From: Escherichia phage vB_EcoS_G29-2
Length of the DNA stretch: 51,739 nucleotides
Direction: 5' to 3' (one strand)
Sequence record: NC_049822.1
Part shown: positions 1 through 51,739 of the stretch, piece after piece
Numbering within the stretch: the stretch's first letter is position 1
How the letters are laid out: each line of letters begins with the position of its first letter
Position numbers and translations under genes: made by a program
The notes under the pieces: generated by a model
Told to the model about the DNA's origin: nothing
Seen by the model: only the letters and a program-made list of their open reading frames with translations
The model's database searches: none

Positions 1-70
1 AGAGAAACACGGTCCTCTTGCATCCTTTCCGGCAATCCTGGCGAGCGCAACTGTTATTTCCGTTCCCAAT

Positions 71-105
71 GTTATCTCAATTAAGCCTCCGCACTTTGAG
101 ATAAC
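71..105. repeat. inverted repeat GTTATCTCAA / TTGAGATAAC (10-bp arms, 15-bp loop)
   Basis: perfect 10-bp arms at 71-80 and 96-105 in non-coding left end. Confidence 0.6.
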
Positions 106-139
106 AAAATCAGCGTTCACAAACAAAAAGAACAAAATA

Positions 140-300
140 AAATTTATATATATACCCATAAAATCAATAAGTTAGTTATATATGTATTTATATTTGTTAT
201 TTACTGTTATGCTCGTTCTGTGGGTATATGGTGGTGTGGTATTGTTTTTGGTGATATGTATGCGTGGTTGTATACTTTTTAATCAATGGTAATGCGGGGT
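140..300. repeat. AT/TG-rich non-coding element, copy A (homologous to 29770-29935)
   Basis: shared blocks AAATCAATAAGTTAG, TATTTATATTTGTT, TGTGG/TGTGTG, TGGTTGT. Confidence 0.55.
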
Positions 301-456
301 GATTTTTGTATGTATATATATGGGGTAGCGGTAATCCTCCGTCAACCAGGTCAACAAGGTCACTTTTAGCTGTTAAACCAATAACTTAACCAGTGCATTT
401 TGTTATCTCTAAACGCGCCACATGCCAAAAATCGTTATTAAAACACAAAATATATT

Positions 457-486
457 GACATGTAGGAAAGGAAAGGCAATAATGCA
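457..486 (+). promoter_or_regulatory. sigma70-like promoter candidate (TTGACA -17/18- AATAAT)
   Basis: TTGACA at 457-462 and A/T-rich -10 near 480-486, upstream of first gene. Confidence 0.45.
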
Positions 487-519
487 TCCAGTTTAAACGC
501 AACAAAAGGAGTAAATGCC

Positions 520-1005
520 ATGAGCGAAGAAAATATTAGCACCATGTCGCGTAGTGAGTTCTGCGATATGCTTCGCACCCTGGGCGCGGCAATTGGTAGC
601 GGTGAACGTAACAATGTATTCATGCCAGCACTTTTCTTGTGCGCTAACGTGGAGAACGGCGGCGCAATTACGGCATCGTACATGCGCCAGGTGGTCAACC
701 GTGTACCAGAAGTGAAGCAAAAAGGCGTGATCAGCATTAAGCGAAAGGTGACTGATGAGGGTGATGGCTTTGTGTTTACGCTCACAGAAGCCAAAAGCAA
801 GCCACGCGTTCTGACTGGTGAAGAAATCGACGAGATCGCAGAAAAGCGCGCAGAGAAGGCGGTAAGCAAAATTCTTAATCACCTGGTAAACGTAATGCCA
901 AATATCACAGACCTGGAAGGCGATAAACTTGCTGGAGCGTGTGAGGCTATCGGGCGCTACCAGGATATGATCCGTAAACTAGCTGGAGGAAAAGAGGATG
1001 AGTAA
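520..1005 (+). CDS. hypothetical early protein
   Basis: 161-aa ORF, RBS AAAGGAG at 504-510, first gene after promoter-like TTGACA/AATAAT at 457-486. Confidence 0.6.
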   Translation: MSEENISTMSRSEFCDMLRTLGAAIGSGERNNVFMPALFLCANVENGGAITASYMRQVVNRVPEVKQKGVISIKRKVTDEGDGFVFTLTEAKSKPRVLTGEEIDEIAEKRAEKAVSKILNHLVNVMPNITDLEGDKLAGACEAIGRYQDMIRKLAGGKEDE

Positions 1006-1258
1006 GGCATTAATTGGAGTTTTGATTGCAATCGCTACCCTGACCGGATGCGAAAAGGCATCGGAATCAACCGTTGTCGTAGGCGTGGAGTCAGATTTCA
1101 AAGTCGGTCGCCTGTTCACTGTTGACGGATGCACAGCATACAGATTCTATGATAACGGTCGCGCGATCTATTACACCAATTGCAAAGGCGCAACGGATAG
1201 CACGTACAACAGCGGAAAGAACGTAATGCGCCAGCAAGTCACAACAGATATTAAATAG
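998..1258 (+). CDS. putative lipoprotein (signal peptide with lipobox LTGC)
   Basis: N-terminus MSKALIGVLIAIATLTG-C; start overlaps upstream stop; stop codon embedded in motif copy at 1254. Confidence 0.6.
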   Translation: MSKALIGVLIAIATLTGCEKASESTVVVGVESDFKVGRLFTVDGCTAYRFYDNGRAIYYTNCKGATDSTYNSGKNVMRQQVTTDIK

Positions 1259-1300
1259 CACTTTTTGTTAAAACGCCAGGTGCGAATCCTGGCATAATAG
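1254..1300 (+). promoter_or_regulatory. conserved 21-bp motif promoter (motif + spacer hairpin GCCAGG/CCTGGC + -10 ATAATA)
   Basis: AATAGCACTTTTTGTTAAAAC then 19 bp then ATAAT. Confidence 0.6.
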
Positions 1301-1331
1301 CCTCATCGAAACGAGATTGAGGAAAACAAAA

Positions 1332-1517
1332 ATGGCACGTCGCATCACCAAAGACCTTAAAGTTCTGAACAAAGAAAACGTAGTTAAAATCCTGGTTATC
1401 TGGGGATACAACGAAGAAGCAGCAAAGCAGAAGGTAGAGGCAGGTTATGACCTGGCTGTAAAAGCAATGCCAAACGACGACGCCAAAGGCATTGCAAACT
1501 ATGTGGCTTTCTTTTAA
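1332..1517 (+). CDS. hypothetical protein
   Basis: ATG preceded by conserved leader CATCGAAACGAGATTGAGGA; track ORF 1317-1517 trimmed to RBS-supported ATG. Confidence 0.5.
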   Translation: MARRITKDLKVLNKENVVKILVIWGYNEEAAKQKVEAGYDLAVKAMPNDDAKGIANYVAFF

Positions 1518-1532
1518 TTAGCAGGCGAATAA

Positions 1533-1718
1533 ATGAAAACGAAATTAGTCCATAAGTCAGAAATCAAGATCGGCGATACTGTGATTCACAACGGCGAGCT
1601 TAGAACGGTTGGCAAAGAGTCAATAAGCCACGATGAGTTTATGGGGATCTTGTTGTTCGGCGACTCTTATCGGCTGGGTTATAAAATGGTTGAGCTTGTG
1701 GAAGAAGTAAAATTCTAA
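1533..1718 (+). CDS. hypothetical protein
   Basis: 61-aa ORF; stop embedded in motif copy at 1718. Confidence 0.45.
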   Translation: MKTKLVHKSEIKIGDTVIHNGELRTVGKESISHDEFMGILLFGDSYRLGYKMVELVEEVKF

Positions 1719-1764
1719 ATAGCACTTTTTGTTAAAACTCAAAAACGATAACCAGGCATAATGC
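1718..1764 (+). promoter_or_regulatory. conserved 21-bp motif promoter
   Basis: motif then 19 bp then ATAATG. Confidence 0.55.
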
Positions 1765-1817
1765 ATCACATAGGGCGGCACGGCGTCGCCCACTAAAACC
1801 AATCAGGAGAAAGCACC

Positions 1818-2765
1818 ATGTTAAAACTTGCTGACATTAAATTCCCGATCACCTTCGAATCTCGCGGCGTTGGTCATTTCATGTTTACCGACGAGAAGAC
1901 ATGCACTAAGTTTAACGAATACGGAAGTCCAAACGCTTCAACAATGGAGATTGAACACTTCATTGAAGCGCACAATAAACACTACAACTCACTTCGCGAC
2001 TACGGCTATGCAATGCCAGGATACACCTGTTTTCACTACAAGCCATATAAAGGACAGGTGTTACCAATGCGCGCACAGGACATTGCGAGCGCTGCGACTT
2101 ATGCGCGGGCAATTCACGCGCCAGAGAATGCAGAGCCACTAGTAAAAATGCACGCCTTCGACTATAAAAAATTGTGGTGCTTAAGCGTGGACAATATCAA
2201 GTATCCGATCACTTTCCGCTCCGCTGGTAATTCAACGATTCGCTACACATCACGCGACAATGGCGTTTATGGTGATGGTCAGAAATCAGAGTTGAAAGTT
2301 GATTTCTTTGTCAATGGTCACAACAAATTCAATCCACACAACGAAAAGGATAAAGTGTATTACGTGGAAGACATTACAAAACACTTGTTTGGAGAAACAC
2401 CATTCGGCGGCGGGAAGACGTCTATTGCTCAGGCTATAGATAACGTTGCGCGACGTATTGGTGAGCAGATTCACAGTCAAACAATTAAGGCGTCCGGAGG
2501 CTGGCGTATTGATAAGAGCGTCATTGCCTGTCAAGAAATCGTAACGCAGGGCGCGATTGAAGACATGCCGCTTGGCGCTTCAATCATCGGCATCAAAGAC
2601 GACAACGGCGACTGGCAGGATGTTTCATTCCCTGTTAAGCAGATCGAAGTACACGACGACCTGATTTGCCTCCTGGCTCATCATGGCAGCTATAGAGACA
2701 AAGCCTTTGCCGCAGAGCTTAACATCAAGCGCGGAACGATGGTTAAGTGGAAGGTCAAAGCGTAA
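1818..2765 (+). CDS. hypothetical protein with internal tandem repeat
   Basis: 315-aa ORF, RBS CAGGAGA; internal duplication ADIKFPITFESRG / DNIKYPITFRSAG. Confidence 0.7.
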   Translation: MLKLADIKFPITFESRGVGHFMFTDEKTCTKFNEYGSPNASTMEIEHFIEAHNKHYNSLRDYGYAMPGYTCFHYKPYKGQVLPMRAQDIASAATYARAIHAPENAEPLVKMHAFDYKKLWCLSVDNIKYPITFRSAGNSTIRYTSRDNGVYGDGQKSELKVDFFVNGHNKFNPHNEKDKVYYVEDITKHLFGETPFGGGKTSIAQAIDNVARRIGEQIHSQTIKASGGWRIDKSVIACQEIVTQGAIEDMPLGASIIGIKDDNGDWQDVSFPVKQIEVHDDLICLLAHHGSYRDKAFAAELNIKRGTMVKWKVKA

Positions 2766-2808
2766 ATAGCACGAATTGTTAAAACTCAAATGTGGGGCCA
2801 GGTATAAT
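2764..2808 (+). promoter_or_regulatory. conserved motif promoter (variant AATAGCACGAATTGTTAAAAC, -10 TATAAT inside GGCC stem)
   Basis: motif then 17-18 bp then TATAAT. Confidence 0.55.
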
Positions 2809-8901: not shown

Positions 8902-9423
8902 ATGGCTAAAAACGTTGAGCCAGCAGTAAAGGCTTGCAATTTTAAAAAACTATATAATAAGCAATATGGCGATATTGCAAAAATGACAAAGGCGCACAAG
9001 TACACGCCGGAACAGGTGTTTGATCTGGCTGTGCGTTACTTTACGTGGGCCGAGGAAAACCATATACAGGCTGCGGAAACTGCATCCTTTCAGGGTGATG
9101 TATACGAAAGCAAGATTCACAAGCCGCGCGTGTTCACCTTAAATGGATTCCGCTTATTCGCTGGGCTTTCTGCTTCCGTTCTTGAAAAATGGCGACGCGA
9201 GCCAGGATTCAGCGATGTTATGGACTTTATCGACGGCGTTGTTTATGAACAAAAATTTCAGCTTGCTGCAAACAATATTGTTAACGCTGGATTCATTGGT
9301 AAAGAGATCGGCATTGAAAAGCCAGCAACCGTAACCATTGAGAATAACACAAGCGCAAGCGTTGACGCTGTAACGGCGGAGGAAGTCAAAGAGGCGGTAA
9401 TTGACATTCTGGAGAAGATATAA
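8902..9423 (+). CDS. terminase small subunit
   Basis: motif FTLNGFRLFAGLSASVLEKWRRE typical of TerS DNA-binding region; immediately upstream of TerL. Confidence 0.75.
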   Translation: MAKNVEPAVKACNFKKLYNKQYGDIAKMTKAHKYTPEQVFDLAVRYFTWAEENHIQAAETASFQGDVYESKIHKPRVFTLNGFRLFAGLSASVLEKWRREPGFSDVMDFIDGVVYEQKFQLAANNIVNAGFIGKEIGIEKPATVTIENNTSASVDAVTAEEVKEAVIDILEKI

Positions 9424-38037: not shown

Positions 38038-38511
38038 TTAGCAATTAGTGCTTTCAGGTTTATACAGGAATCCGCCAGGTTCATAATCTGACATTCTTAC
38101 CACTCGCAACATTTCACGCTTATCACATCTCTTTGTGAGCGGTTTGCCATTGGAATCAAATCGCAGATCTGGACGGCAGAATGACGCGCGATAGCCTTGA
38201 CAACCATATTTCTTGTAATCGTTATGCACCTTTTGAGCGCCAGCGGCTGAAATCATACCGCGAACGCGCCACTGATTTACAGTTTGCTGGCTAACGTTAA
38301 GACGCTTTGCCATTGCTGACACGCTGCCGTAATACTCAATAAGAATGTCAAGCCGTGCTTTTAGTCCGGCGCGCACTTCATCTTTTAAAACATAGTATCC
38401 TGTAGGGCGCTTGCGCTTTTTCTTATCTTTACCCCGTCGAGTTCCGTTATTGCCATTAATTGTGCGCTTGTCAATCTTGCCTGTTGATACCGCGATTCGC
38501 TGCTCTTTCAT
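38038..38511 (-). CDS. HTH DNA-binding protein (putative regulator)
   Basis: helix-turn-helix SVSAMAKRLNVSQQTVNQWRVRG; basic K/R-rich N-terminus. Confidence 0.6.
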   Translation of the reverse strand: MKEQRIAVSTGKIDKRTINGNNGTRRGKDKKKRKRPTGYYVLKDEVRAGLKARLDILIEYYGSVSAMAKRLNVSQQTVNQWRVRGMISAAGAQKVHNDYKKYGCQGYRASFCRPDLRFDSNGKPLTKRCDKREMLRVVRMSDYEPGGFLYKPESTNC

Positions 38512-42066: not shown

Positions 42067-42107
42067 CACTTTTTGTTAAAAAGCCCGGCCCTGTGTCGGG
42101 CATAATT
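42062..42107 (+). promoter_or_regulatory. conserved motif promoter (hairpin GCCCG/CGGGC, -10 CATAAT)
   Basis: motif then 19 bp then ATAATT. Confidence 0.55.
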
Positions 42108-42648: not shown

Positions 42649-43764
42649 ATGAAGCAAATCAAAATCACAGATGAACAATTTATCAATGAGCGCAAGCAGG
42701 GAAAGACATATAAGCAGATAGCTAATGAGTATGGTATGAACGTTCGCAGCATTGAGCGACGCGCAGCGCGACTTGCAAAGCAAGGTAAAGTTACAACCAT
42801 CGGATCACCTGGCTTTGGCGTTACTGGAGAATCAAAGCTAATTGATAAAGATGGCAATGTGGTTATGACATGGATTAAGACAAGCAAGGACCGCGAGCAG
42901 TTAGAAGCATTAATGCAGGCCGCTATGGATGCATTTAGCGAAGAAGTTCCGCGACTTGATCCGCAACCAGAATCACAAAAGGATTATAGCGAGACGTTAT
43001 CACTGTATCCGATCTTTGACATGCACTTGGGCGCAATGGCGCATAAGCATGAATGCGGAGAGAATTGGGATACAGCAACAGCAGAGCGCGTAATGAATAA
43101 TTTCATTGATTATTCTATCCAGTGCGCGCCGGATAGCGAAAAAGCTGTTTTGCTGATTGGTGGCGATATGCTTCACAGTGACGGACTTGAAGCGGTTACA
43201 CCTGCAAGCGGTCACGTATTGGATCAAGATAGTCGATACGCAAAACTTGTTTATGTTGCCATCCGGTCAGTGCGTCGAGCAATCACAAAGCTGTTATCAA
43301 AACATAAAAACGTAGAGATTCAGATAATTGAAGGCAACCACGACCAAAGCGGCATGATCTGGTTGCGCGCAGCAATGGCGGCAGCATATGAGAATGAGCC
43401 GCGAGTGCATGTTGATGTGTCTCCGCGAGTGGTTCATCACACACAATATGGCAAAACATTCCTGGCATACCATCATGGGCACACTATCCGCAAGCCTGAA
43501 ACATTGCTCATGATGTGTGCGGCAGACTGGCGCGAAGACTTCGGAAATTCAAAAATGATGTATGCTCACGTAGGGCACTGGCATCATCAGACAGTAACTG
43601 AAACAAGCCTGGGCATTGTTGAAGTGCATAGCACTATGGCGGCAAAAGATGCATATGCGGCGCGCGGTGGATGGCGTTCTCGACGCCGTGCGGCTGTTAT
43701 TGTTTACGATAAAGAATACGGAGAGGTAGGGCGATTTATGCATTATCCAGAAATGGCTTATTGA
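42649..43764 (+). CDS. calcineurin-like metallophosphoesterase with N-terminal HTH domain
   Basis: motifs GGDMLHSDG, GNHDQ, GHWHH; N-terminal YKQIANEYGMNVRSIERRAARL; RBS AAGGAG. Confidence 0.65.
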   Translation: MKQIKITDEQFINERKQGKTYKQIANEYGMNVRSIERRAARLAKQGKVTTIGSPGFGVTGESKLIDKDGNVVMTWIKTSKDREQLEALMQAAMDAFSEEVPRLDPQPESQKDYSETLSLYPIFDMHLGAMAHKHECGENWDTATAERVMNNFIDYSIQCAPDSEKAVLLIGGDMLHSDGLEAVTPASGHVLDQDSRYAKLVYVAIRSVRRAITKLLSKHKNVEIQIIEGNHDQSGMIWLRAAMAAAYENEPRVHVDVSPRVVHHTQYGKTFLAYHHGHTIRKPETLLMMCAADWREDFGNSKMMYAHVGHWHHQTVTETSLGIVEVHSTMAAKDAYAARGGWRSRRRAAVIVYDKEYGEVGRFMHYPEMAY

Positions 43765-48128: not shown

Positions 48129-48173
48129 ATTATGCCAGGCTTTTACACCTGGCTTTTAACAAAAAGTGCTATT
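48129..48173 (-). promoter_or_regulatory. conserved motif promoter (hairpin GCCAGG/CCTGGC, -10 CATAAT)
   Basis: minus-strand motif; same hairpin sequence as copy at 1254. Confidence 0.55.
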
Positions 48174-49671: not shown

Positions 49672-49953
49672 CTAATTAATGCCAACAACGTTAAAACTTA
49701 CAGCTTTTGTTGCGCTAAACACATACGCTTCAACAGCCTCACCAAATACACGAATTTTTCCCTGGCCGTACTGCGCATTCATATTGCGCCAAACCGTCCT
49801 GTTAGAACAGAACGCGCTACCAGTCTTGATAAGATTATCCATCTCTTTCCTTAGATCATGATAATCAAGCCAGAATCTATAAGCGCGTTGTTTAATGAGT
49901 TGTGCCTTGATTGTTTCAGTTGAGTTTTTAAAATCGCTGTTTGTGTAGGCCAT
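49672..49953 (-). CDS. hypothetical protein
   Basis: RBS GGAGG; TAATG coupling with upstream gene. Confidence 0.5.
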   Translation of the reverse strand: MAYTNSDFKNSTETIKAQLIKQRAYRFWLDYHDLRKEMDNLIKTGSAFCSNRTVWRNMNAQYGQGKIRVFGEAVEAYVFSATKAVSFNVVGIN

Positions 49954-50147
49954 TACACAACCTCCATAAAAGTATTGAATCCACGCAGTTTGAAAGCATT
50001 GCCATGTTTAACAACGTTCCATGTCAGGCCGGAGTGATACGCAACCATATCCTCAAGATCAATGGTGATGATAGCGCCTTTCTTAAAGATTCCTTTCTCG
50101 TGAGTGGTGTCACGCTGTACAACTTTAACATCAACTTGATTTTCCAT
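49953..50147 (-). CDS. hypothetical protein
   Basis: RBS GAGGA and conserved leader downstream of motif promoter 50178-50223. Confidence 0.5.
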   Translation of the reverse strand: MENQVDVKVVQRDTTHEKGIFKKGAIITIDLEDMVAYHSGLTWNVVKHGNAFKLRGFNTFMEVV

Positions 50148-50177
50148 CTTTAAATCCTCGTTCGTTGTCGATGGATG

Positions 50178-50223
50178 TAATATACCATTCAGGCGCATAC
50201 CGTTTTTAACAAAAAGTGCTATT
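50178..50223 (-). promoter_or_regulatory. conserved motif promoter (-10 ATATTA)
   Basis: motif then 18-19 bp then ATATTA; followed by conserved leader. Confidence 0.5.
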
Positions 50224-51008: not shown

Positions 51009-51254
51009 TCATTGTTGATCGTGTTTAACTGCCATCAGAATATCACAGGACTCGTTAATAAATTTTGCCATGCGCTTATCATCACCATCAGGGATTAGCG
51101 CGTTAAACTCGCGTTTGCTACTGAACACAGTCACTTTATGGAATGATGCGAACGGCATCGACGGGAACTCGACTGTTTGCGTCAAGATCCGCAAACCCAT
51201 CTTTTTGGCCCTTACCTGGGCCTCGGCAAGTTCAAAATCCACTTCACTAATCAT
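51009..51254 (-). CDS. hypothetical protein
   Basis: ATGA coupling to upstream gene. Confidence 0.45.
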   Translation of the reverse strand: MISEVDFELAEAQVRAKKMGLRILTQTVEFPSMPFASFHKVTVFSSKREFNALIPDGDDKRMAKFINESCDILMAVKHDQQ

Positions 51255-51523
51255 TTCTTGATCTCCTCGGCAATAAACTTCAGGACTTTGCGCAAAAAAA
51301 CTTCGTTGTTGATGGTTGCTGGCAATTCCTCTTTCACTTCTTGCGGCAGATAGATATTGTCGTGCCAGGTTAAGCAATCGTAATTGATACGATAAGAGCA
51401 AAGCCACTCGCAATCGTTATCCGCTTCCCAAATGCAGAGTTGCAGAACATCGCCAAAATCCTCAACAGTCAGATCCAGACCGTGACGCTTTGCAAAGTTG
51501 AAAGTGGTTTTGCTGATGTTCAT
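51251..51523 (-). CDS. hypothetical protein (first gene of leftward operon)
   Basis: RBS CAGGAGA, downstream of motif promoter 51561-51605. Confidence 0.55.
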   Translation of the reverse strand: MNISKTTFNFAKRHGLDLTVEDFGDVLQLCIWEADNDCEWLCSYRINYDCLTWHDNIYLPQEVKEELPATINNEVFLRKVLKFIAEEIKK

Positions 51524-51560
51524 TGCTATCTCCTGATGGGTATCTCGTTTCGATGTGTCT

Positions 51561-51605
51561 AATGTACCCGATCAGGGCAATTCAGTTTTAACAAAAAGTG
51601 CTATT
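51561..51605 (-). promoter_or_regulatory. conserved motif promoter (-10 TACATT)
   Basis: motif then 18 bp then TACATT; drives leftward operon from 51523. Confidence 0.5.
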
Positions 51606-51618
51606 TGCTTACTGGTTA

Positions 51619-51658
51619 TTATTCCACCTATTCCATTAATCAGGAATAACAGGAATAA
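51619..51658. repeat. imperfect palindrome TTATTCCACCTATTCC ..8 bp.. GGAATAACAGGAATAA
   Basis: 16-bp arms, 13/16 complementary, upstream of leftward operon promoter. Confidence 0.5.
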
Positions 51659-51739
51659 ATCATTCGCGATCACCTGGATTGTGAGACTTTGAGTTTGATC
51701 AATTTTAATCAAGTGATTAACTTTTTGTGTGGAGGGGAT

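What the first reader, a model, noticed from the sequence alone, without database searches (positions are those of the whole stretch)
51619..51658. Operator-like palindrome upstream of the leftward operon
TTATTCCACCTATTCC and GGAATAACAGGAATAA form 16-bp inverted arms separated by 8 bp, just upstream of the motif promoter at 51561-51605. This resembles a dimeric regulator binding site. The HTH protein at 38038-38511 or the HTH-phosphoesterase at 42649 are candidate binders.
Basis: inference. Interest (0 to 1): 0.4.

Follow-up and report, generated by a model that had tools for sequence, protein, structure and literature searches.

The report
Conserved four-hexamer protein-binding array
A short DNA palindrome in the control region of a T1-like coliphage is really four strongly conserved copies of GGAATA. 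It almost certainly binds a protein next to the first leftward promoter and the probable DNA-packaging start, but the protein is unknown and the proposed phage HTH proteins do not fit.

Summary
The palindrome exists at 51619-51658. Its arms match at 13 of 16 positions with an 8-bp spacer. It is better described as four GGAATA hexamers, two tandem 9-bp units per arm.

A generic imperfect inverted repeat of this kind is no rarer than chance. The four-hexamer layout never arose in 200 simulated genomes and is unique in the window.

The window is a circularly permuted Hanrivervirus genome (T1-like, Drexlerviridae). The element lies in the 735-bp divergent intergenic region. By my estimated start site it spans -65 to -104 of the outermost leftward promoter, and it lies 81 bp from the probable pac end.

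In 27 distinct relatives the hexamers are as conserved as second codon positions, while adjacent bases vary freely. Two more distant lineages keep the hexamers with different spacers. It is not coding, not a terminator and not a conserved hairpin.

The "operator-like protein site" reading is therefore partly supported. The proposed binders (HTH protein 38038-38511, the phosphoesterase) and the adjacent DUF7174 protein do not co-vary with it.

Leading models are a promoter-linked regulator site (~0.4) and a small-terminase/pac recognition array (~0.3).

The parts
51619..51658 (.). The palindrome: four GGAATA hexamers arranged as two tandem 9-bp units per arm around an 8-bp centre.
   Evidence: Conserved in 27 distinct Hanrivervirus sequences.
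51620..51625 (-). Hexamer 1 (GGAATA on the minus strand), promoter-proximal, centre about -68.5.
   Evidence: Invariant except one singleton (L091, C>A) in 27 sequences.
51629..51634 (-). Hexamer 2 (GGAATA on the minus strand), centre about -77.5.
   Evidence: Invariant except one singleton (L086). Position 51627 between hexamers 1 and 2 carries all four bases among relatives.
51635..51642 (-). Central 8-bp spacer, TGATTAAT on the minus strand. It is one copy of the family-wide TGATTA motif.
   Evidence: Variants TGATTAGT, TGGTTAAT and TGATTTAT are seen. TGATTA is enriched 20-40-fold in the 120 bp upstream of the outermost marbox in four lineages.
51643..51648 (+). Hexamer 3 (GGAATA), centre about -91.5.
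   Evidence: Invariant in 27 of 27 sequences.
51652..51657 (+). Hexamer 4 (GGAATA), promoter-distal, centre about -100.5. Locus L053 has an extra CAGGAATAA unit here.
   Evidence: One singleton (pSf-1, G>A). Position 51659 just outside carries all four bases.
51605..51618 (-). 14-bp linker between the array and the promoter motif. Its sequence varies but its length is constant.
   Evidence: Diversity 0.246, 8 of 14 columns variable, no indels in 27 sequences.
51585..51604 (-). 20-nt promoter motif ATAGCACTTTTTGTTAAAAC (marbox-like), centred about -40.5.
   Evidence: 17 copies in the window against 0.04 expected. The marsox consensus AYnGCACnnWnnRYYAAA gives 17 exact hits against 0.09 expected. 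Consensus taken from PMC3709825.
51561..51566 (-). -10 hexamer TACATT of the outermost leftward promoter, 18 nt downstream of the motif. The transcription start is inferred near 51554.
   Evidence: The same 18-nt spacing to CATAAT/TATAAT-type hexamers is seen at most copies of the motif. The start site is inferred, not mapped.
51251..51523 (-). First gene of the leftward operon (90 aa, phrog_6147, function unknown).
   Evidence: It is 97% identical in Warwickviruses, which carry a different upstream cassette.
51709..51724 (.). Perfect 7-2-7 palindrome TTAATCA-AG-TGATTAA (two TGATTA motifs), 15 bp from the window end.
   Evidence: The arms are invariant, while the 2-bp centre and the adjacent base (51716-51718) vary; block 51701-51739 has diversity 0.027, 3 of 39 columns variable.
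51727..51739 (.). Conserved G-rich block GTGTGGAGGGGAT ending at the window break. This is the inferred physical (pac) end region.
   Evidence: The ends of the window record, XY3 (1 nt offset) and haarsle (8 nt offset) coincide. The MSK PhageTerm terminus lies at the homologous place. T1 and TLS records start in the same intergenic region.

Best explanation
The element is a cis-acting, double-stranded-DNA binding array for a sequence-specific oligomeric protein. It has four GGAATA half-sites in a two-plus-two inverted layout, spanning about -65 to -104 with its symmetry centre near -84.5. Its most likely job is to control the outermost promoter of the leftward early operon.

That promoter is the only one of the phage's 17 marbox-type promoters with free non-coding DNA upstream of it. 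A protein bound at the array would sit just upstream of the activator/alpha-CTD zone of a class II-type promoter. From there it could stimulate RNA polymerase or shut the promoter off.

**Shown:** the array's existence, its uniqueness, strong purifying selection on the hexamers only, its retention next to the promoter in three lineages, and the absence of coding or RNA-structure signals.

**Inferred:** that a protein binds, that the target is this promoter, and the numbering relative to an unmapped transcription start.

The binder is unidentified. The candidates tested here by co-variation all failed, so a host factor or an unrecognised small phage protein remains possible.
For: 1. **Non-random layout.** The four-hexamer layout is unique in the window and arose in 0 of 200 simulations.
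2. **Footprint-like conservation.** Hexamer diversity is 0.009, with 3 singleton changes in 24 columns across 27 sequences. Third codon positions of the adjacent gene give 0.157 (Fisher p = 2e-5). The 28 flanking columns have 13 variable against 3 of 24 in the hexamers (Fisher p = 0.015). Two positions, one inside the array and one just outside, carry all four bases.
3. **Deeper conservation.** Contig L013 and Enterobacter phage BHUENT9 share only about 72% identity in the adjacent gene. They keep TATTCC-N3-TATTCC-N8-GGAATA with different spacers. In both, the nearest upstream hexamer ends 16 nt from the motif, against 15 nt here, and a further GGAATA is fused to the motif itself (GGAATAGCAC).
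4. **Constant linker length.** The linker to the promoter motif varies in sequence but never in length among 27 sequences. The extra unit in L053 is added on the promoter-distal side.
5. **Stays with the promoter.** Where a gene is inserted downstream (L010, L057), the array stays with the outermost promoter.
6. **Same pattern in other lineages.** Every lineage examined has some short repeat array starting 1-22 bp upstream of an outermost marbox:
   - GATTAC x4-6 in Warwickvirus.
   - GATTAC next to the second T1 marbox, which lies on the other side of the putative end.
   - Tandem AGACCGATTGGTCT in TLS.
   - TGCAA repeats in MSK and L012.
   This ties the arrays to the promoter rather than to a fixed side of the packaging end.
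Against: - No cognate regulator was found.
  - DUF7174, the adjacent divergent gene, occurs with the array in at least three very different alleles.
  - The recognition helix of the 157-aa HTH protein does not track the array.
  - The 73-aa early protein is also present in Warwickviruses.
  - Pfam found no DNA-binding domain in 20 small early proteins.
- If the binder is a host factor, it is odd that four genera infecting E. coli each carry a different repeat at this spot. No similar array was found in enterobacterial chromosomes.
- The interval between the promoter motif and the inferred pac end is only about 135 bp. Adjacency to the promoter is therefore partly unavoidable and equally fits a packaging role.
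- The transcription start, and hence all '-' coordinates, are inferred.
Confidence: 0.4

Rival explanations
1. The array is the genus-specific part of the pac recognition site, a 'pacL'-like set of half-sites. The oligomeric small terminase (P22 gp3 family, 8902-9423) binds it to position the first packaging cut about 80-100 bp away at 51739|1. Any effect on the neighbouring promoter would be secondary.
For: **Evidence that pac lies here**
- The T1 record starts, with its terminal-redundancy feature 1..2800, in this same intergenic region. So does the restriction-mapped TLS record.
- The PhageTerm terminus reported for Rtp-like phage MSK (position 36,862; PMC8421802) lies 146 nt from its outermost marbox.
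- The window record ends 135 nt from the marbox. XY3, from another genus, ends 137 nt from it, 1 nt from the homologous break. haarsle ends 127 nt from it.

**Evidence for small terminase as the binder**
- Between genera, small terminase diverges most in its predicted HTH recognition helix: 12 of 24 identical there against 75% overall for Hanrivervirus versus Warwickvirus.
- Hanrivervirus-type small terminase (at least 80% identity) is present in 65 phage records. The GGAATA block is in 62. The next small-terminase class drops sharply to 74%.
- Short repeats flanking or near a pac cut are known from P1 and SPP1 (my own knowledge).
Against: - L013 and BHUENT9 carry the GGAATA hexamers with a different small-terminase helix (WSKCA[LV]EKW rather than LSASVLEKW). 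The same helix occurs in phages without GGAATA (L043-L045).
- Co-occurrence of small terminase type and array within one genus may simply reflect common descent.
- The block nearest the inferred cut (51701-51739, TGATTA palindrome plus G-rich motif) is equally conserved and is a more natural recognition site.
- The family-wide motif in this interval is TGATTA, not GGAATA.
- GATTAC arrays lie on opposite sides of the putative end in T1 and Warwickvirus but are always next to a marbox.
- The cut position in this genus is inferred from record ends only.
Confidence: 0.3
2. The hexamers are iterons or auxiliary sites of the phage replication origin, which would lie in the same intergenic region next to the AT-rich tract at 120-340. 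A phage initiator would bind them.
For: - The intergenic region has an AT-rich, repeat-dense tract.
- It contains other short repeats (TGTTATC/GATAACA at 49-116 and 397-417).
Against: - The GGAATA array is more than 200 bp from the AT-rich tract and lies on the other side of a mosaic junction.
- DUF7174 alleles co-vary with the TGTTATC repeat region (window 49-116), not with the GGAATA block.
- The units have a 6-bp core with a 9-bp period and mixed orientation, unlike classical 17-22-bp iterons.
- No replication-origin data exist for this family in the papers searched. The TLS authors report finding no iteron-type repeats.
Confidence: 0.08
3. The element acts as a nucleic-acid structure: a cruciform, an RNA hairpin, a terminator or a small RNA.
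For: The 54-nt segment folds into an interrupted hairpin better than shuffles do. As DNA it gives -7.1 kcal/mol (z -2.5) and as RNA -13.7 to -14.9 kcal/mol (z about -3).
Against: - The stems are AT-rich with a 3x3 internal loop and there is no U/T tract. The terminator scan does not call it.
- It lies upstream of the leftward promoter and upstream of the rightward promoters, so no predicted transcript contains it.
- All three hexamer substitutions break pairs without compensation.
- The hypervariable 51627 has an invariant 'partner'.
- L013 and BHUENT9 keep the hexamers but could form only a 6-bp stem.
- There is no Rfam match.
Confidence: 0.04
4. The region encodes a small protein on the minus strand, as annotated in some relatives (for example herni_31), and the repeat is simply coding sequence. 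Alternatively, the element is a functionless slippage relic.
For: - Several GenBank records annotate a minus-strand ORF across it: herni_31 and slyngel_66 (327 nt), grams_9 (438 nt), Fulano1 gp65 (237 nt), aaroes_22 (189 nt).
- The 9-bp unit is a multiple of 3, and L053 shows unit expansion.
Against: - The annotated ORFs have inconsistent lengths and starts, and many records annotate none.
- 1-nt indels in L009, L052 and L060 break the frame.
- The ORF would overlap the promoter motif.
- The two hypervariable sites are 32 nt apart, which does not fit one codon phase.
- A neutral relic would not show diversity 17-fold below synonymous sites, nor persist in lineages at 72% identity.
Confidence: 0.03

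Closest known systems
Phage phi29 protein p4 binding sites upstream of the A3/A2b/A2c promoters (my own knowledge)
   Same: Inverted-repeat sites lie upstream of a sigma-A/sigma-70-type promoter in a virulent phage's divergent early/late control region. They are centred about 80 bp upstream of the start. Several sites are bound by a small oligomeric regulator that both activates and represses.
   Different: No p4-like protein was found here and the sequences are unrelated. The neighbouring promoter is marbox-type. Binding and regulation are untested.
Lambdoid cI/Cro-type operators
   Same: Dyad-symmetric, lineage-specific sites lie next to divergent early promoters.
   Different: Lambdoid operators overlap the core promoter and are 17-bp single dyads. 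They co-vary with an adjacent HTH repressor gene. Here the array lies upstream of about -65, has four half-sites with a 9-bp period, and the only Cro-like HTH protein (38038-38511) does not co-vary.
pac sites built from short repeats: P1 pac (TGATCA/G hexamers flanking the cut) and SPP1 pacL/pacR boxes (my own knowledge)
   Same: Several copies of a 6-7-bp motif lie within about 100 bp of the first packaging cut. The site is unique in the genome and lineage-specific. It lies in a region where the pac end maps in T1, TLS and MSK.
   Different: The small terminase here is of the P22 gp3 family, whose known pac site is a single asymmetric 22-bp sequence inside its own gene. The hexamers contain no GATC. 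Co-variation with small terminase is imperfect. The cut site is inferred.
Ribbon-helix-helix operator arrays (omega heptads, ParG boxes, MetJ metboxes; my own knowledge)
   Same: Very short repeats with a 7-9-bp period occur in both direct and inverted orientation with variable copy number.
   Different: No ribbon-helix-helix protein was detected in Pfam scans of 20 small early proteins. The 8-bp central gap is atypical.
The 21-nt intergenic direct repeat of TLS, T1 and Rtp (aaATAGCACnnnTTGnTAAAA; PMC11447400)
   Same: This is the 'motif promoter' adjacent to the palindrome. It is the same repeat, with the same orientation and the same position ahead of genes.
   Different: It is a separate element from the palindrome. 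The palindrome occurs only once, upstream of the outermost copy.

Membership tests
   Arms match at 13/16. The four hexamers are invariant apart from 3 singletons in 27 sequences.
   It lies 14 bp upstream of the promoter motif, with constant linker length. It does not overlap the -35/-10 core, and the transcription start is inferred.
   The 157-aa HTH protein, the exonuclease/phosphoesterase, DUF7174 and the 73-aa early protein all fail the co-variation or presence test. No other DNA-binding domain was found in 20 small early proteins.
   Needs EMSA or footprinting and reporter assays.
pac / small-terminase recognition site | Lies within roughly 150 bp of the first packaging cut. | tested here: inconclusive
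   It lies 81-120 bp from the window break. That break coincides with the ends of the XY3 and haarsle records and with the MSK PhageTerm terminus at the homologous place. No read-level data exist for this phage.
pac / small-terminase recognition site | Specificity co-evolves with the small-terminase DNA-binding domain. | tested here: inconclusive
   The predicted recognition helix differs between genera, and 65 records with Hanrivervirus-type small terminase compare with 62 records carrying the block. However, L013 and BHUENT9 have the hexamers with another helix.
pac / small-terminase recognition site | Single copy in the genome. | tested here: met
Iteron-type replication origin | Repeats adjacent to an AT-rich unwinding element, with a co-varying initiator gene. 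| tested here: not met
   The AT-rich tract is more than 200 bp away across a mosaic junction. DUF7174 co-varies with the TGTTATC region, not with this block.
Intrinsic terminator / structured RNA | GC-rich stem plus U-tract, or base-pair covariation, or an Rfam match. | tested here: not met
Class II marbox (MarA/SoxS/Rob) promoter, for the adjacent 'motif promoter' | Match to AYnGCACnnWnnRYYAAAY. | tested here: met
   14 of 15 specified positions match. The pattern without the last Y gives 17 exact hits against 0.09 expected. Consensus from PMC3709825.
Class II marbox (MarA/SoxS/Rob) promoter, for the adjacent 'motif promoter' | Forward orientation, overlapping the -35 region, centred near -41.5. 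| tested here: met
   [quoted passage not shown] The centre is about -40.5 with the inferred start. Geometry from PMC6900184 and PMC9638938.
Class II marbox (MarA/SoxS/Rob) promoter, for the adjacent 'motif promoter' | Activation by MarA, SoxS or Rob (or a phage homologue). | not testable with these tools
   No AraC-family protein was found among about 45 phage proteins scanned. Needs genetics or in vitro transcription.

The most novel reading that the evidence does not exclude
The palindrome is the lineage-specific switch on the first promoter of a transcription programme that runs entirely on host Mar/Sox/Rob-type activation.

On this reading, the 21-nt repeat whose function the TLS authors list as an open question is a class II marbox. 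T1-like phages would then recruit Rob, MarA or SoxS (or an unrecognised mimic) to all of their roughly 17 promoters.

The GGAATA array, and its GATTAC, TGCAA and other counterparts in sister genera, would couple that first promoter to the adjacent pac end. The same bound protein, possibly small terminase, would mark the packaging start and gate early leftward transcription.
Probability: 0.15. Interest if true: 0.75.

Novelty: new member of a known kind. Interest (0 to 1): 0.35.

Why it matters
Taken alone, the palindrome is an ordinary kind of object: a conserved protein-binding array in a phage control region. It does, however, mark the one place in T1-like genomes where the first early promoter, the probable packaging start and lineage-specific short repeats meet.

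Transcription control and pac recognition are essentially unstudied in this family. The 40-bp probe with its hexamer-scrambled control is a clean handle for pulling down the unknown binder.

The context work also gives a testable answer to a question stated as open in the 2024 TLS paper. The ubiquitous 21-nt repeat fits the MarA/SoxS/Rob box in class II geometry. That predicts that T1-like phage gene expression depends on, or is tuned by, host stress-response activators.

Tried and rejected
**Candidate binders**
- **The 157-aa HTH protein and the HTH-phosphoesterase.** No co-variation was found.
- **Three-way genome comparison** (window against BHUENT9, which has the array, and tonijn, which lacks it), looking for genes with the matching pattern.
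  - The only hits were tail-fibre-adjacent proteins of unknown function (32751-34624) with no DNA-binding features.
  - The other hit, the 73-aa early protein, turned out to be present in many Warwickviruses.
- **Pfam scans of 20 small early proteins.** No ribbon-helix-helix, HTH or zinc-finger domains were found.

**A host site**
- A scan of 185k bacterial genomes for a three-hexamer pattern returned only scattered hits in unrelated, mostly AT-rich genomes. Nothing was enterobacterial apart from one metagenome-assembled genome (MAG).
- Resemblances recalled from memory to NarL heptamers, ARG boxes, DnaA boxes and IclR boxes all fail at key positions. They were not pursued.

**RNA or terminator**
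- There is no Rfam match, no terminator call and only a modest hairpin.

**Literature**
- No paper in the library contains the motif string.
- None links T1-like phages to marboxes.

Full report
**1. What the window is**

The last 1.24 kb of the window is 99.4% identical to Escherichia phage herni (Drexlerviridae, Tempevirinae, Hanrivervirus). In herni the sequence runs straight from the window's last base into its first base. The window is therefore a circularly permuted whole genome.

The finding lies in a 735-bp divergent intergenic region (51524-51739 plus 1-519). On one side is the leftward operon, whose first gene is the 90-aa protein at 51251-51523 on the minus strand. On the other side is the rightward operon, whose first gene is the 161-aa DUF7174 protein at 520-1005.

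**2. The observation**

The arms match at 13 of 16 positions. Taken as a generic imperfect inverted repeat it is unremarkable: there are 4 such repeats in the window and about 4 in simulated genomes.

Its composition is what stands out. It consists of four exact GGAATA hexamers, two per arm, arranged as tandem 9-bp units. On the plus strand the right arm reads CAGGAATAA CAGGAATAA. On the minus strand the left arm reads ATGGAATAG GTGGAATAA. The centre is an 8-bp spacer.

This layout occurs once in the genome and never in 200 simulations.

**3. Conservation**

- The 134-bp block containing the element is present at 90-100% identity in 62 phage records, all Hanrivervirus-like.
- I aligned 27 distinct sequences.
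- Hexamer nucleotide diversity is 0.009, from three singleton changes. Other values:

| Region | Diversity |
|---|---|
| GGAATA hexamers | 0.009 |
| 14 bp between the array and the promoter motif | 0.246 |
| Promoter spacer (motif to -10) | 0.388 |
| Third codon positions of the adjacent gene | 0.157 |
| Second codon positions of the adjacent gene | 0.006 |

- The contrast with third codon positions gives Fisher p = 2e-5.
- Positions 51627 (inside the left arm) and 51659 (just outside the right arm) carry all four bases.
- The three hexamer changes are not compensated on the other arm.
- One relative (L053) has a third CAGGAATAA unit.
- Two more distant lineages keep the hexamers while the intervening bases differ. 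These are metagenomic contig L013 and Enterobacter phage BHUENT9, which share about 72% identity in the adjacent gene. Both read TGATTATTCC-N3-TATTCC-N8-GGAATAAT, followed 12-13 nt further on by a further GGAATA fused to the promoter motif (GGAATAGCAC).

This is a phylogenetic footprint of sequence-specific recognition, not of a hairpin.

**4. What it is not**

- **Not coding.** Some records annotate a minus-strand ORF across it, but with inconsistent boundaries. Single-base indels in three relatives break any frame.
- **Not a terminator or a known RNA**. The hairpin is weak: -7 kcal/mol as DNA.
- **Not transcribed**, according to the predicted promoters. It lies upstream of both the leftward and the rightward ones.

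**5. The neighbouring 'motif promoter'**

The 20-nt motif ATAGCACTTTTTGTTAAAAC occurs 17 times against 0.04 expected. Every copy is co-oriented with the downstream gene. In most copies the motif ends 18 nt before a CATAAT/TATAAT/TACATT-type hexamer, and most are followed by a conserved leader.

It is the same element as the 21-nt direct repeat aaATAGCACnnnTTGnTAAAA reported for TLS, T1 and Rtp. Those authors list its function as an open question (PMC11447400).

It fits the published marsox box AYnGCACnnWnnRYYAAAY (PMC3709825) at 14 of 15 specified positions. The consensus without the last Y gives 17 exact hits in the window against 0.09 expected.

- Its best-conserved parts (GCAC and TAAAA) are the two recognition elements of MarA/SoxS.
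- Its forward orientation, overlap with the -35 region and centre near -41 are the class II geometry.
- I found no AraC-family protein among about 45 phage proteins scanned.

With the start inferred at 51554, the palindrome spans -65 to -104 and its symmetry centre is at about -84.5.

**6. The same place in other lineages**

Close relatives whose first leftward gene is 97% identical have a different cassette at this spot. In Warwickvirus it is TGATTAC repeated 4-6 times at about 10-bp phasing, found in 61 records. Other lineages also differ:

- TGCAA repeats in L012/L015 and MSK, and in T1 next to its first marbox.
- CAATCA repeats in L014 and L043-45.
- Two tandem AGACCGATTGGTCT palindromes in TLS.
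- GATTAC next to T1's second marbox.

In all cases the repeats start 1-22 bp upstream of an outermost marbox.

TGATTA itself is enriched 20-40-fold in this 120-bp interval in four lineages. In the window it forms the centre of the palindrome and also the perfect palindrome TTAATCAAGTGATTAA at 51709-51724.

**7. Who binds?**

- **DUF7174.** It looked like a cognate partner at first, but the palindrome occurs with several very different alleles. Its alleles co-vary instead with the TGTTATC repeat region at window 49-116.
Its recognition helix is VSQQTVNQWR here. It is VSQQVVNQWR in a Warwickvirus without the array and VSHQTIQQWR in BHUENT9 with it, so it does not track the site.
- **The phosphoesterase.** It is a conserved SbcD-like exonuclease family protein.
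- **Three-way genome comparison.** It produced no DNA-binding protein with the right distribution.
- **Small early proteins.** They show no DNA-binding domains.
- **Host chromosomes.** They show no comparable array.

**8. The packaging end**

- T1's record starts, with its 2.8-kb terminal redundancy feature, in this same intergenic region. So does the restriction-mapped TLS record.
- For the Rtp-like phage MSK, a PhageTerm forward terminus was reported at 36,862 (PMC8421802). In the sequence that position is 146 nt from its outermost marbox.
- The window's own break is 135 nt from the marbox. Warwickvirus XY3's break is 137 nt from it and falls 1 nt from the homologous position. haarsle's is 127 nt from it.

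I infer that the first packaging cut lies at about 51739|1, which is 81 bp from the palindrome.

The small terminase is of the P22 gp3 family. It diverges between genera mainly in its predicted HTH recognition helix. Hanrivervirus-type small terminase (65 records) and the GGAATA block (62 records) are co-inherited.

L013 and BHUENT9, however, combine GGAATA with a different helix. That helix also occurs without GGAATA.

**9. Verdict**

The element is a real, selected, DNA-level protein-binding array. Two models remain.

I favour a promoter-linked regulatory site (about 0.4). Three points support it:

- Arrays of this kind always abut an outermost marbox, whichever side of the putative end they lie on.
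- The linker length is fixed.
- One hexamer fuses with the marbox in the distant lineages.

A small-terminase/pac recognition role is a close second (about 0.3), and the two are not mutually exclusive. Origin iterons, nucleic-acid structure, coding sequence and a neutral relic are all unlikely.

The palindrome is a new member of a known kind and of modest interest by itself. The marbox identity of the family's 21-nt repeat, found while characterising the context, is the more surprising and directly testable result.

Noticed in passing
window 51585-51604 (-) and 16 other sites, e.g. 1255, 1719, 6767, 41043, 45308, 50709: The 20-nt promoter motif ATAGCACTTTTTGTTAAAAC is the same as the 21-nt repeat of TLS, T1 and Rtp, whose function is listed as an open question in PMC11447400. 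It matches the MarA/SoxS/Rob marbox consensus (17 exact hits against 0.09 expected). It sits in class II geometry: forward orientation, 18 nt from the -10 hexamer, centre about -41. No AraC-family protein was found among the phage proteins scanned.
   Followed up: partly
window 51739|1 (break); L321/L322 (XY3); L005 (haarsle); L323:563 (MSK): Independent records from two genera end within 1-8 nt of the same homologous position, in the motif GGAGGGGAT|AGAGAAAC. The published PhageTerm terminus of phage MSK lies at the equivalent distance from its outermost marbox. This is probably the real first-cut (pac) end of T1-like genomes.
   Followed up: partly
window 49-116 and 397-417, 120-340, 520-1005: TGTTATC/GATAACA repeats include a perfect 11-bp inverted repeat at 70-80/96-106. 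They flank a very AT-rich, repeat-dense tract. Two alleles of this repeat region co-vary with the allele of the adjacent DUF7174 gene, whose N-terminal domain models confidently and has weak winged-helix-type fold matches. This could be an origin/initiator or autoregulation module.
   Followed up: partly
window 51709-51724: The perfect palindrome TTAATCA-AG-TGATTAA lies 15 bp from the inferred end, and its arms are invariant in 27 relatives (only the 2-bp centre and the adjacent base vary). From memory, AATCAAGTGATTA fits the IHF core consensus WATCAANNNNTTR. TGATTA is enriched 20-40-fold in this interval in four lineages and is phased at 10 bp in Warwickvirus and BHUENT9.
   Followed up: partly
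between the motif and the -10 hexamer at many promoters, e.g. 1275-1292, 42083-42100, 48135-48152, 51567-51584: The 18-nt spacers often contain a short GC-rich dyad (CCAGG...CCTGG, GCCCG...CGGGC) that abuts or spans the -10 hexamer. At the outermost promoter the spacer exists in at least four unrelated alleles among close relatives (diversity 0.39).
   Followed up: no
L101:690-725 (TLS 49789-49824): TLS carries two tandem copies of the palindrome AGACCGATTGGTCT 8 nt upstream of its outermost marbox. From memory this resembles the RutR box TTGACCAnnTGGTCAA.
   Followed up: no
window 8902-9423 (small terminase), residues about 78-101: Between Drexlerviridae lineages, small terminase varies most in the predicted HTH recognition helix: LSASVLEKW, VTEAAVSKW, ASEAAIIKW, FSEAVTLKW, WSKCALEKW and FSGTALAKW. 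The rest of the protein is well conserved. This suggests diversifying pac specificity.
   Followed up: partly
phage records MG0656xx ('Campylobacter phage A13a, A14b, A123 ...', UNVERIFIED): About 20 records labelled as Campylobacter jejuni phages are 93-96% identical to this coliphage genus across the region. They are probably mislabelled or contaminant Hanriverviruses.
   Followed up: no
window 51572-51739 plus 1-159 (-): Some GenBank records annotate a hypothetical protein across the palindrome and promoter (herni_31, slyngel_66, grams_9, Fulano1 gp65, aaroes_22). The boundaries are inconsistent and relatives have frame-breaking indels, so these are likely spurious calls.
   Followed up: yes
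window 49953-50198 (-): This small early protein matches Pfam PF25180, 'Phage antiviral trigger protein Gp54' (E = 3e-37).
   Followed up: no
L053 (metagenome contig ERZ507310.15), equivalent of window 51641-51658: This relative has three rather than two CAGGAATAA units. Unit number in the array therefore changes by 9-bp slippage on the promoter-distal side.
   Followed up: yes
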